From a virus: a DNA stretch of 64,000 nucleotides. The stretch lies in the IMG/VR virus record IMGVR_UViG_3300045988_085459, one strand, 5' to 3'. Shown here piece after piece: positions 16,532-17,314 of the stretch. Numbering within the stretch: position 1 is the first letter of the stretch; each line of letters opens with the position of its first letter. A program made the position numbers and the translations under genes. A model generated the notes under the pieces. That model was not told the DNA's origin. It saw only the letters and a program-made list of their open reading frames with translations, and did no database searches.

Positions 16532-17314
16532 ATGTCATACATCTACAAGATTTCTAATGATATTAACGATTAGATTTATATTGGTTAGACTCGTGGAACT
16601 TTAGAATCTCGATTAAAAGAACATTTATATGATGCTAAAGTAAATAAAGATAATAGTAAATTCCATAAAGCTATTCGTGAACTTGGGAGTGAACATTTTT
16701 CTATTTCTATGATTGAAGAATGTCCTACTGAGTATCTTAATGAAAGAGAACGCTTTTAGATTGCTTATTATAATTCTCAAGAATACGGGTATAATTCAAC
16801 TCGCGGTGGGCAGAATGATCCATATTATACAGATATAGATAAAGCAGTTGAGTATTATCTTCATCATAAAGATGAAAAAACTTTAACCGAAATTACTAAA
16901 GATTTAAGAATCCAACCTAATCGGTTAAGAGATTTGCTTGAAGAGTTAGGACTAAGAAATAAACAAACATATACTTCATATAGCGAGATCTCTCAACAAG
17001 AGAAAGATTCTATTTGTAGAGAATATTCTCAAGGTACTACAATTACAGATTTAACTAAAAAATATCATCATGACTTTGATACGATTAAAAATATATTGAA
17101 GGAAAGAAATCTATATGCCTCAAGGTCTAAATCAGTATTACAATATACGATTGATGGTACTTTAGTTAAAGAATGGCCCACTTTAGCGGCCGCGGTGAAA
17201 GAATATAACAATAGACATATTGGAGAATGCGCTAGAGGAAAACGCAAAACTGCGGCAGGATATAAGTGGAAGTATACACATGGGGCTGATAATCTGGATT
17301 CGATTGGGGACTAA
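16532..17314 (+). CDS. GIY-YIG homing endonuclease with three in-frame TAG (two inside the GIY-YIG motif)
   Basis: ATG 16532 after AAAGGAGA SD; MSYIYKISNDIND[Q]IYIG[Q]TRGTLESRLKEHL ... NERERF[Q]IAYYNSQEYGYNSTRGGQ; reading TAG as Gln restores the common YIGQT motif; C-terminal extension of DNA-binding type. Confidence 0.8.

What the first reader, a model, noticed from the sequence alone, without database searches (positions are those of the whole stretch)
16532..17314. Free-standing GIY-YIG homing endonuclease inside the tRNA array, with TAG codons inside its catalytic motif
The gene sits between tRNA-Phe and a tRNA remnant. Two of its three TAGs are within the GIY-YIG block (IND[Q]IYIG[Q]TRG), so the enzyme is only made when the amber suppressor is present. 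Timing the mobility of the element to late infection would be an elegant use of the recoded codon. It also gives the best positional evidence that TAG encodes Gln, since YIGQT is the common motif.
Basis: partly seen in the sequence, partly recalled or inferred. Interest (0 to 1): 0.5.

Follow-up and report, generated by a model that had tools for sequence, protein, structure and literature searches.

The report
Amber-recoded homing endonuclease abutting phage tmRNA
A selfish DNA-cutting gene in a gut phage's tRNA cluster does carry three in-frame TAG codons that are read as glutamine, but it sits directly on a complete tmRNA gene rather than a tRNA remnant, and one TAG replaces a conserved tryptophan, so it is a known kind of mobile gene in an unusual position.

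Summary
The ORF at 16532-17314 is real. It has 260 codons, three in-frame TAGs (codons 14, 19, 76) and no TAA or TGA before its end. It encodes an I-TevI-type GIY-YIG catalytic domain plus a C-terminal DNA-binding domain, and it is under purifying selection (dN/dS 0.12). The downstream "tRNA remnant" is a complete tmRNA (17282-17602). The ORF has no stop codon of its own and ends on a TAA 31-33 nt inside the tmRNA. Four related phage genomes lack the gene at exactly this site, with near-identical flanks and a tmRNA about 70% identical, which is the pattern homing leaves. TAG = Gln is well supported across the window: 38 of 63 TAG-to-codon exchanges with relatives are CAA or CAG. Within this gene only TAG 2 sits at a conserved Gln. 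TAG 1 is variable (mostly Lys), and TAG 3 replaces a near-invariant Trp (I-TevI W78) that is never Gln in homologs. Delayed homing-endonuclease production through recoded stop codons was already proposed by Borges et al. and remains untested here. Verdict: a new variant of a known kind, of moderate interest.

The parts
16327..16401 (+). tRNA-Phe(GAA), upstream neighbour. The flank shared with endonuclease-free alleles runs on to 16431.
   Evidence: ARAGORN and Rfam. The window is 99.9% identical to the endonuclease-free locus L018 up to 16431.
16438..16500 (+). Conserved hairpin with a covarying stem (CCTCTTGC/GCAAGAGG). It lies directly before the tmRNA in endonuclease-free alleles and before the endonuclease gene in alleles that carry it.
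   Evidence: Folds have z-scores of -4.1 (window), -5.0 (L018) and -3.9 (L019). The stem sequence differs between lineages but pairing is kept.
16518..16523 (+). Shine-Dalgarno AAGGAG, 8 nt before the ATG
   Evidence: Read from the sequence. The motif GAAAGGAGACAT is conserved in L002 and L008.
16532..17314 (+). Homing endonuclease ORF, 260 codons, with TAG at 16571, 16586 and 16757 and stop TAA at 17312-17314
   Evidence: dN/dS is 0.12 against the 78%-identical ortholog.
16532..16807 (+). GIY-YIG catalytic domain (residues 1 to about 92). Y5, Y16, R27, H31, E73 and N88 are present. TAG 3 (codon 76) is equivalent to I-TevI W78.
   Evidence: Pfam PF01541 covers residues 1-84. The family profile matches PDB 1mk0/1ln0 (I-TevI) at E 5e-20. 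Invariant columns are listed.
17120..17281 (+). C-terminal DNA-binding module (...HIGECARGKRKTAAGYKWKY). It ends at the tmRNA boundary.
   Evidence: PHROG homing and HNH endonuclease C-terminal matches. The profile matches the C-terminal part of I-HmuI (1u3e) at E 0.0018. G236, G243 and W246 are nearly invariant.
17282..17602 (+). Complete tmRNA. Its first 33 nt (17282-17314) also encode the endonuclease tail GADNLDSIGD and the stop codon.
   Evidence: Rfam RF00023, E 4.6e-28. Across 7 alleles there are 75 predicted pairs, 24 with compensatory changes, and G3.U is present in all.
17370..17405 (+). tmRNA tag reading frame DEDYFENYLAA plus TGA stop
   Evidence: Read from the sequence. It is homologous to the tag DNDYFENYLAA* that ARAGORN calls in L018 and L021.
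17608..17683 (+). tRNA-Lys(CUU). It lies inside the segment that differs from endonuclease-free alleles. It is absent from L018-L021 and also from L002 and L016.
27598..27672 (+). Amber suppressor tRNA (anticodon CUA) needed to read the three TAGs
   Evidence: ARAGORN and Rfam tRNA at 60.2 bits. It is conserved in relatives with an unpaired 1:72 position and G73.

Best explanation
This is a free-standing, I-TevI-type GIY-YIG homing endonuclease gene of a TAG-recoded (code-15-like) gut phage. It is inserted exactly at the 5' boundary of the phage's tmRNA gene, inside the tRNA array.

Shown:
- The protein has the full catalytic set and a C-terminal DNA-binding module.
- It has evolved under purifying selection.
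- It has no stop codon of its own and terminates on a TAA at tmRNA nucleotides 31-33.
- It is always linked to one tmRNA allele.
- It is absent from otherwise near-identical relatives, which carry a tmRNA about 70% identical at that site.

Inferred mechanism:
- In mixed infections the enzyme cuts endonuclease-free genomes near the tRNA-Phe/tmRNA junction.
- Recombinational repair then copies the gene together with its linked tmRNA allele, as T4 SegB does for its tRNA region.
- Its mRNA can be translated past codon 13 only when UAG is decoded by the phage tRNA-CUA at 27598-27672, overwhelmingly as Gln.
- Output is therefore tied to suppressor abundance and is attenuated three times over by competition with release factor 1.
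- The TAGs look like synonymous CAR-to-TAG turnover in a gene of the TAG-permissive class, not position-specific design.
- The exception is codon 76, a TGG-to-TAG change. It puts Gln at a conserved core Trp and may weaken this lineage's enzyme.
For: Identity of the gene:
- Pfam GIY-YIG matches at E 7.7e-9 and PHROG 'homing endonuclease' at E 1.9e-23.
- The family profile matches the I-TevI catalytic domain at E 5e-20.
- Y16, R27, E73 and N88 are invariant, and Y5 and H31 nearly so.

A functional gene:
- dN/dS is 0.12 overall and 0.07 in the catalytic domain against the 78% ortholog.

Mobility:
- L018, L019, L020 and L021 have tRNA-Phe followed by the tmRNA, with no endonuclease homolog.
- L018 flanks are 99.9% identical on the left and 96% on the right, while the tmRNA between them is only about 70% identical.
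- The leader ...GAGGGTCGCTATAT is followed by GGGG (the tmRNA start) in L019 and L020. In L002 it is followed by the ribosome-binding site and the ORF.

Overlap with the tmRNA:
- It is conserved in every allele that carries the gene: L001, L002-L007, L008, L013 and L016.

TAG is a sense codon read as Gln:
- In-frame TAGs occur in 12 of 62 ORFs, and none is needed as a terminator.
- TAG exchanges with CAA or CAG in 38 of 63 ortholog comparisons.
- Within this gene, codon 19 is TAG here and CAA in L002. Codon 83 is CAA here and TAG in L002. Codon 204 is CAA here and aligns with TAG at L008 codon 205.
- Two lysin TAGs align to Q in PDB homologs.
- Code 15 has been verified by proteomics in other gut phages (PMC9523058).

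TAG class:
- TAG makes up 3 of 11 Gln-type codons in this gene against 0 of 23 in neighbouring ORFs of the tRNA region (p = 0.028).
- Three other endonuclease-type ORFs in this phage group also carry 3 to 8 TAGs.
Against: - No cleavage site or empty site with the cognate tmRNA allele was found, so homing is inferred from the polymorphism alone.
- Codon 76 would be Gln at a position that is W in 122, Y in 13, A in 2 and C in 1 of 138 representatives, and never Q. This particular copy could be impaired.
- TAG positions are not conserved between orthologs (14/19/76, 14/83, 19/205). That argues against a designed gate.
- The suppressor tRNA lies in the same-strand tRNA region, so a temporal delay is not demonstrated.
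- The overall similarity of the suppressor tRNA does not separate Gln (0.72) from Trp (0.71) ancestry.
Confidence: 0.8

Rival explanations
1. The TAGs are a selected gate. They keep the endonuclease off, or at low dose, until the suppressor tRNA has accumulated, timing DNA cleavage to late infection. model.
For: - Every tmRNA-linked ortholog keeps 2-3 TAGs, with at least one within the first 19 codons.
- TAG is enriched relative to neighbouring ORFs (p = 0.028).
- Four endonuclease-type ORFs in this phage group all carry TAGs.
- In-frame TAGs in the window are otherwise concentrated in tail-fibre-like and lysis genes.
- There is a published precedent for a TGA-recoded intron endonuclease (10.1101/2021.08.26.457843).
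Against: - TAG positions turn over between orthologs, as synonymous sites do.
- There are no expression data.
- The suppressor sits in the same-strand tRNA region as the gene, so it may be made at the same time.
- The enrichment rests on 3 codons.
Confidence: 0.4
2. The gene is a decaying homing-endonuclease pseudogene, and the TAGs are nonsense mutations.
For: - The W76-to-TAG change hits a core residue that is conserved in 88% of homologs.
- Homing endonuclease genes are known to decay after fixation (general knowledge).
Against: - All three interruptions are TAG, with no TAA, TGA or frameshift in 260 codons.
- dN/dS is 0.12.
- TAG is demonstrably a sense codon in 11 other genes, including the lysin and an RNA ligase.
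- TAG at codon 14 is shared with the 78% ortholog.
- All catalytic residues are intact.
Confidence: 0.06
3. UAG is decoded ambiguously, mostly as Gln with some Trp, because the suppressor is a Trp-type tRNA with a C35U change. A fraction of the molecules would then carry the native Trp at position 76.
For: - The suppressor's anticodon arm GGTCTCTAAAACC differs from the phage tRNA-Trp arm GGTCTCCAAAACC only at the middle anticodon base.
- Two of the 63 TAG exchanges are with TGG (16757 and 59669).
- E. coli su7 (tRNA-Trp with a CUA anticodon) accepts both Gln and Trp (from memory).
Against: - Exchanges with CAA or CAG outnumber those with TGG by 38 to 2.
- The acceptor stem (GCGGA) matches the phage tRNA-Gln(UUG), and the 1:72 position is unpaired, which favours GlnRS (the identity rules are from memory).
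- TGG to TAG is a single transition, so two cases need no special explanation.
Confidence: 0.1
4. The nuclease has been co-opted. Its main role would be to benefit the phage rather than to home selfishly, for example by rearranging or amplifying the tRNA/tmRNA region or excluding competitors.
For: - T4/T6 SegB promotes amplification of tRNA loci to escape a tRNA-cleaving defence (PMC13096335 abstract).
- The gene-tmRNA linkage has been stable over dS of about 1 or more.
Against: Nothing in the sequence separates this from ordinary homing. The presence/absence polymorphism with mosaic flanks is the classic homing signature.
Confidence: 0.1

Closest known systems
Phage T4 SegB (free-standing GIY-YIG homing endonuclease in the T4 tRNA gene cluster; PMC2330249)
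   Same: - Both are free-standing GIY-YIG genes between tRNA genes of a large lytic phage.
- Both are absent from close relatives.
- In both, flanking RNA genes are inherited along with the endonuclease gene. [quoted passage not shown]
   Different: - The two share only the family-level GIY-YIG domain. No close annotated phage relative exists; the best match among GenBank phages is 35% identity.
- Here the ORF runs into a tmRNA and borrows its stop codon.
- Here the gene carries recoded TAG codons.
- Cleavage has not been demonstrated.
I-TevI (T4 td intron endonuclease, PDB 1mk0/1ln0)
   Same: The catalytic domain aligns over residues 2-90 at E 5e-20. Tyr, Arg, His, Glu and Asn are all conserved, and the layout of N-terminal nuclease, linker and C-terminal DNA-binding domain is the same.
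   Different: - This gene is not encoded in an intron.
- The C-terminal domain is of a different type (GKRKTAxGYxW module, weakly similar to the I-HmuI C-terminus).
- The residue equivalent to I-TevI W78 is encoded by TAG.
TGA-recoded group I intron endonuclease of Agate phages (Borges et al., 10.1101/2021.08.26.457843)
   Same: Both are homing endonuclease genes of a stop-codon-recoded gut phage that preferentially carry the recoded stop in frame. Those authors proposed that this delays endonuclease production until late infection.
   Different: - That case is TGA = Trp in an intron-encoded enzyme within an early gene.
- This case is TAG = Gln in a free-standing gene in the tRNA array.
- The two are unrelated proteins as far as tested.
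TAG-to-Gln (code 15) gut phages such as phAss-1 and crAss-like phages (PMC10607447, PMC9523058)
   Same: - In-frame TAG occurs in a subset of genes, mainly structural and lysis genes.
- The phage encodes its own tRNA-CUA and a large tRNA set.
- TAG aligns with Gln in homologs.
   Different: Only a 151-nt tRNA-Trp match to phAss-1 was found, so this is a different phage group. Those papers mention neither homing endonucleases nor tmRNA (zero occurrences).
Phage-encoded tmRNAs (huge phages, PMC7162821)
   Same: Large phages with big tRNA sets also encode tmRNA.
   Different: No endonuclease ORF overlapping a tmRNA is described there. That study called tmRNAs with ARAGORN, which misses this allele.

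Membership tests
GIY-YIG homing endonucleases (I-TevI / Seg type) | GIY-YIG catalytic domain detectable by profile | tested here: met
   Pfam PF01541 scores 36.2 bits against a cutoff of 22.6, E 7.7e-9. The family profile matches the I-TevI catalytic domain at E 5e-20.
GIY-YIG homing endonucleases (I-TevI / Seg type) | Catalytic residues: Tyr of GIY, Tyr of YIG, Arg27, His31, Glu75 and Asn90 (I-TevI numbering) | tested here: met
   Y5 (the motif reads YIY), Y16, R27, H31, E73 and N88 are all present. They are invariant or nearly invariant across 42 sequences.
GIY-YIG homing endonucleases (I-TevI / Seg type) | Conserved aromatic core residue three positions after the catalytic Glu (I-TevI W78) | tested here: not met
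   Codon 76 is TAG, read as Gln. Homologs have W in 122, Y in 13, A in 2 and C in 1 of 138, and never Q. The 78% and 70% orthologs have TGG. This is a conserved rather than a defining catalytic residue, so it lowers confidence in the activity of this copy, not in its family membership.
GIY-YIG homing endonucleases (I-TevI / Seg type) | Separate C-terminal DNA-binding domain | tested here: met
   Residues of about 197-250 match the C-terminal modules of PHROG homing and HNH endonuclease families and weakly match I-HmuI 1u3e.
GIY-YIG homing endonucleases (I-TevI / Seg type) | Presence/absence polymorphism at a fixed site, with mosaic flanks | tested here: met
   Five lineages carry the gene and four related genomes lack it at the same tRNA-Phe/tmRNA junction. 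L018 flanks are 99.9% and 96% identical around a diverged core.
GIY-YIG homing endonucleases (I-TevI / Seg type) | Site-specific double-strand cleavage of the allele lacking the gene, with biased inheritance | not testable with these tools
   This needs a biochemical assay or phage crosses.
Genetic code 15 phages (TAG = Gln) | TAG used in frame within genes and not needed as a terminator | tested here: met
   There are 38 in-frame TAGs in 12 of 62 ORFs. With TAG read as sense, every ORF ends on TAA or TGA, and split genes such as the RNA ligase and the lysin become whole.
Genetic code 15 phages (TAG = Gln) | TAG positions correspond to Gln in homologs | tested here: met
   38 of 63 exchanges with relatives are CAA or CAG. 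The rest are mostly Lys, Asn and Glu codons, with 2 TGG. Two lysin TAGs align to Q in PDB homologs. Within this gene only 1 of 3 TAGs fits.
Genetic code 15 phages (TAG = Gln) | Phage-encoded tRNA with a CUA anticodon | tested here: met
   It lies at 27598-27672 and is conserved in relatives.
Genetic code 15 phages (TAG = Gln) | Gln actually inserted at UAG | not testable with these tools
   This needs proteomics. The tRNA features (unpaired 1:72, G73, U35) are compatible with GlnRS, but overall similarity does not separate Gln from Trp.
tmRNA (RF00023) | Full-length match, acceptor stem with G3.U, tag reading frame ending in ..LAA plus a stop, T-arm and CCA | tested here: met
   76.8 bits against a gathering score of 47, model positions 1-374. 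G3.U is present in all 7 alleles, and 24 of 75 pairs show compensatory changes. The tag is DEDYFENYLAA followed by TGA.

The most novel reading that the evidence does not exclude
The endonuclease and the tmRNA form one coupled unit.

- The ORF's only stop codon lies 31-33 nt inside the tmRNA. Maturation of the tmRNA 5' end (RNase P cleavage at 17282) would therefore leave the endonuclease message without a stop codon.
- Ribosomes finishing that message would stall and be rescued by trans-translation. The endonuclease would receive the degradation tag of the very tmRNA it travels with.
- Full-length, untagged enzyme would then come only from unprocessed precursor. That would be a built-in dose limiter, on top of the three UAGs.
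- The tmRNA gene would also be both the cargo and the likely target of homing, since the alleles linked to the endonuclease differ most in the 5' arm.
Probability: 0.15. Interest if true: 0.65.

Novelty: new variant of a known kind. Interest (0 to 1): 0.4.

Why it matters
- It adds a free-standing, TAG-recoded example to the single published hint that recoded phages put their reassigned stop codon into homing endonuclease genes. It also shows that four endonuclease-type ORFs in one phage group do so.
- It identifies the phage tmRNA locus as a hot spot for homing endonucleases. One GIY-YIG gene sits at the 5' boundary, and in relatives a second GIY-YIG gene or a LAGLIDADG gene sits at the 3' boundary.
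- The tmRNA allele appears to be swapped along with the endonuclease, which is one way translation-rescue RNAs could move between phages.
- There is a practical lesson. Single conserved motifs are weak evidence for a codon reassignment. Here one TAG supports Gln, one is uninformative, and one points to Trp. Codon exchange among relatives gives a clear answer.
- ARAGORN-based surveys would miss this tmRNA allele.

Tried and rejected
- A megablast of window 14-22 kb against GenBank phages found only a 151-nt tRNA-Trp match to phAss-1, so there is no annotated close relative.
- Exact-pattern scans with the 5' and 3' ends of the tmRNA found only alleles that carry the endonuclease (L013 in viral contigs, L016 in metagenomes) plus two unrelated permuted tmRNAs. 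No empty site with the cognate tmRNA allele was recovered, so the target sequence could not be defined.
- The sigma-70 promoter and terminator scan around the gene found no more sites than in shuffled sequence. It says nothing about transcription units.
- Overall tRNA similarity does not decide whether the suppressor descends from Gln or Trp (0.72 against 0.71).
- The ThyX TAG aligns to a non-conserved position (Arg in the PDB homolog) and is uninformative.
- The pseudogene reading was rejected on the strength of dN/dS 0.12 and TAG-only interruptions.
- Structure prediction was not run. Profile matches to I-TevI were already decisive, and a model would not show whether Q76 is tolerated.
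Full report
**1. The observation**

Window 16532-17314 (+) translates to 260 residues, with '*' at residues 14, 19 and 76. All three are TAG, and the first TAA or TGA is the terminal TAA at 17312-17314. A Shine-Dalgarno AAGGAG lies 8 nt before the ATG.

At 36% GC, my arithmetic puts the chance of 260 codons with no TAA or TGA at about 1e-6. The product matches:
- Pfam GIY-YIG over residues 1-84, at 36.2 bits against a cutoff of 22.6, E 7.7e-9;
- PHROG homing-endonuclease families, best E 1.9e-23;
- as a family profile, the solved I-TevI catalytic domain 1mk0/1ln0 at E 5e-20.

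tRNA-Phe(GAA) lies upstream at 16327-16401. These parts of the finding are correct.

**2.

Rfam places a full-length tmRNA at 17282-17602 (76.8 bits against a gathering score of 47, E 4.6e-28, model positions 1-374). ARAGORN does not call it. It has:
- the acceptor stem GGGGCUG/CAGCUCC with G3.U;
- a tag frame GAC GAA GAT TAT TTC GAA AAT TAT CTT GCT GCT TGA, encoding DEDYFENYLAA, at 17370-17405;
- a T-arm and CCA.

In relatives where ARAGORN does call the tmRNA, the homologous tag reads DNDYFENYLAA*. Across seven alleles, 24 of 75 predicted pairs show compensatory changes and G3.U is invariant. All alleles therefore look functional.

The endonuclease ORF overlaps the first 33 nt of this tmRNA. 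Its tail GADNLDSIGD and its stop codon are tmRNA sequence.

**3. Relatives: orthologs, insertion point and polymorphism**

The protein search found full-length relatives at 98% (P0001), 78% (P0002), 70% (P0003) and 46-50% identity (P0004-P0012), then a broad family.

In every contig that carries one of the three closest proteins, the ORF again runs 33 nt into a tmRNA (L001, L002-L007, L008, L013, L016). The 47%-identical homologs end with a stop codon of their own a few residues after the GYKW motif. They also lie in or near tRNA arrays, but not on a tmRNA.

A neighbouring protein was used to fetch related phage genomes. Four of them (L018, L019, L020, L021) have tRNA-Phe followed by the tmRNA, with no endonuclease homolog.
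- L018 is 99.9% identical to the window up to 16431 and 96% identical from 17707.
- The tmRNA between those points is only about 70% identical.
- The junction is exact. In L019 and L020 the leader ...GAGGGTCGCTATAT is followed directly by the tmRNA's GGGG. In L002 the same leader is followed by TAATACC...GAAAGGAGACATGAAT-ATG and the ORF.
- The tmRNA alleles linked to the endonuclease differ from the others most clearly in the 5' arm: GGGGCTGATAATCTGG against GGGGCCGT---AAAGG.

A fixed site, presence/absence, and near-identical flanks around a swapped core are what homing with co-conversion produces. T4 SegB is the precedent. It is a GIY-YIG gene in the tRNA cluster that drives inheritance of itself and the surrounding tRNA genes, and it recognises a T-psi-C motif (PMC2330249). 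No cleavage site could be defined here. I did not find an empty site carrying the cognate tmRNA allele.

**4. Is the gene alive?**

With TAG counted as Gln, dN/dS between the window copy and the 78% ortholog is 0.12, and 0.07 in the catalytic domain. Y16, R27, E73 and N88 are invariant across 42 sequences, and Y5 and H31 nearly so. All are present here. A pseudogene reading is therefore unlikely.

**5. What TAG means**

With TAG read as sense, 38 in-frame TAGs fall in 12 of 62 ORFs:
- tail-fibre-like genes at 21.7-26.1 kb;
- lysis genes at 49.9-52.2 kb;
- an RNA ligase, ThyX and a small ORF;
- two GIY-YIG genes.

The other 50 ORFs, including the gyrase/topoisomerase genes, have none. A tRNA with a CUA anticodon lies at 27598-27672.

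I aligned the window's coding frames to all fetched relatives and tallied what TAG exchanges with. The result was CAA or CAG 38 times, AAA or AAG 8, AAT 5, GAA or GAG 5, TGG 2 and others 5, out of 63. Two lysin TAGs align to Gln in PlyL amidase and phi29 gp13.

This is the pattern expected for Gln. It agrees with code 15 as predicted and verified by proteomics in other gut phages (PMC10607447; PMC9523058).

The suppressor's overall similarity does not separate Gln (0.72) from Trp (0.71) tRNAs.
- Its anticodon arm equals the phage tRNA-Trp arm except for the middle anticodon base.
- Its acceptor stem (GCGGA) equals that of tRNA-Gln(UUG).
- Its 1:72 position is unpaired (U.U, or C.U in a relative), with G73.

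From memory of E. coli identity rules, these features are compatible with charging by GlnRS.

**6. The three TAGs of this gene**

| Position | 41 homologs | 138 representatives at 50% identity or less to each other |
|---|---|---|
| 14 | K 24, L 7, Q 2 | K 106, Q 8 |
| 19 | Q 25, K 14 | Q 104, K 21, L 9 |
| 76 | W 37, Y 3, F 1 | W 122, Y 13, A 2, C 1; never Q |

Position 76 is the equivalent of I-TevI W78, three residues after the catalytic Glu. The homologs P0010 and P0011 translate in the standard code, so their Q19 and W76 are genuine.

At the DNA level:
- the 78% ortholog has TAG at codon 14, CAA at 19, TGG at 76 and TAG at 83, where the window has CAA;
- the 70% ortholog has AAG at 14, TAG at 19, TGG at 76 and TAG at 205, where the window has CAA at the aligned codon (204).

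TAG 2 therefore does support Gln, as do the flips at codons 83 and 204/205. TAG 1 is uninformative. TAG 3 is a TGG-to-TAG transition specific to the window lineage (window, L001, L013). It would place Gln at a core aromatic position.

The conclusion that TAG = Gln still stands on the wider evidence.

**7. Is the recoding regulatory?**

Translation past codon 13 must require UAG suppression. That follows directly from the sequence. Whether this times the enzyme to late infection is not shown.

In favour of a gene-level effect:
- TAG makes up 3 of 11 Gln-type codons here against 0 of 23 in neighbouring ORFs of the tRNA region (Fisher p = 0.028).
- All three tmRNA-linked lineages keep 2-3 TAGs, with at least one in the first 19 codons.
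- Three other endonuclease-type ORFs carry TAGs: a GIY-YIG gene downstream of the tmRNA in L004 (4 TAGs), a LAGLIDADG gene downstream of the tmRNA in L019 and L020 (3 TAGs), and the GIY-YIG-domain gene at window 59405-60316 (8 TAGs, the densest in the window).

Against a position-specific design:
- The sites turn over like synonymous sites.
- The suppressor lies in the same-strand tRNA region as the gene.

The idea itself is published. Borges et al. reported a group I intron endonuclease that prefers in-frame TGA, and argued that this should prevent endonuclease production until late infection (10.1101/2021.08.26.457843).

**8. A consequence of the overlap (inference)**

No promoter or terminator signal stands out around the gene, so it is probably part of the tRNA/tmRNA precursor. 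Cleavage at the mature tmRNA 5' end would remove the endonuclease's stop codon. tmRNA maturation and complete translation of the endonuclease would then be mutually exclusive on a single transcript, and truncated messages would be substrates for trans-translation. I rate this as possible but unproven.

**9. Comparison and verdict**

By every sequence-testable criterion except the conserved Trp, the gene is a member of the GIY-YIG homing endonuclease family. Its behaviour most resembles T4 SegB. It has no close annotated relative; the best match among GenBank phages is 35% identity. Phage tmRNAs are known (PMC7162821).

What is new is the arrangement. The endonuclease ORF sits exactly on the tmRNA 5' end and borrows its stop codon. 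It is tightly linked to one tmRNA allele. The tmRNA locus acts as a multi-endonuclease hot spot in a TAG-recoded phage group.

- Observation: partly confirmed.
- Interpretation: partly supported.
- Novelty: new variant of a known kind.
- Interest: 0.4.

Noticed in passing
window 19970-20086 and 20277-20361: Rfam finds two tRNAs that ARAGORN's default run missed. One is a 117-nt hit that looks like an intron-containing tRNA and is conserved in relatives. The other is an 85-nt tRNA with anticodon loop CTGTAAA (tRNA-Tyr GUA) and a long variable arm.
   Followed up: partly
L020 6035-6630, L021 6032-6627, L009 7273-7880; matching place in window about 19722-19726: A ROOL RNA (RF03087, up to 350 bits) sits inside the tRNA array of some relatives, between the two tRNA-Gln genes in L020 and L021. 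It is absent from the window, where the two tRNA-Gln genes are adjacent. This is a second presence/absence polymorphism involving a large structured RNA.
   Followed up: no
window 16438-16500; L018 about 3364-3398; L019 about 3094-3150; L002 about 1546-1602: A hairpin with a 9-10 bp stem lies just upstream of the tmRNA, or of the endonuclease gene where one is present. The stem sequence covaries between lineages, and folds have z-scores of -2.6 to -5. The loop of the longer versions contains a T-loop-like GTTCGATTC. Its function is unknown; it could be a processing signal or a tRNA-like minihelix.
   Followed up: partly
L004 1309-1992; L019 and L020 3575-3973: The 3' side of the tmRNA is also occupied by endonuclease genes in relatives. 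L004 has a second GIY-YIG gene (227 aa, 4 TAGs including YIG[TAG]T), next to a tmRNA whose 3' end is altered (..CAGCTCCAGACACCA). L019 and L020 have a LAGLIDADG ORF (132 aa, 3 TAGs). L018 and L021 have a small unrelated ORF there, and the window has tRNA-Lys(CUU).
   Followed up: partly
window 59405-60316: This ORF has an N-terminal transmembrane helix, a long coiled-coil-like region and a C-terminal GIY-YIG domain (CGIYRI...SYIG[TAG]S). With 8 in-frame TAGs it has the highest TAG density in the window. One of its TAGs (59669) is TGG in a relative.
   Followed up: no
window 21680-26147: A run of TAG-containing, repeat-sharing tail-fibre-like genes lies inside the tRNA region, just upstream of the suppressor tRNA (27598-27672).
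   Followed up: no
L014 1034-1262, L015 2947-3175: Two unrelated viral contigs carry a permuted (two-piece) tmRNA (RF04321). Its acceptor and T-arm end is identical over 31 nt to this phage's tmRNA 3' end.
   Followed up: no
window 27598-27672 and relatives: The suppressor tRNA has a non-paired 1:72 position (U.U, or C.U in one relative). Its anticodon arm is identical to the phage tRNA-Trp arm except for the middle anticodon base, while its acceptor stem matches tRNA-Gln(UUG). It looks like a chimera of Gln and Trp features.
   Followed up: partly
window 17282-17602 compared with L018 3402-3717: ARAGORN detects the tmRNA in L018 and L021, which lack the endonuclease, but not the endonuclease-linked allele (nor the L019/L020 allele). 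Rfam scores are 115-120 bits for L018 and L021 against 77 for the window. ARAGORN-based surveys would miss such phage tmRNAs.
   Followed up: yes
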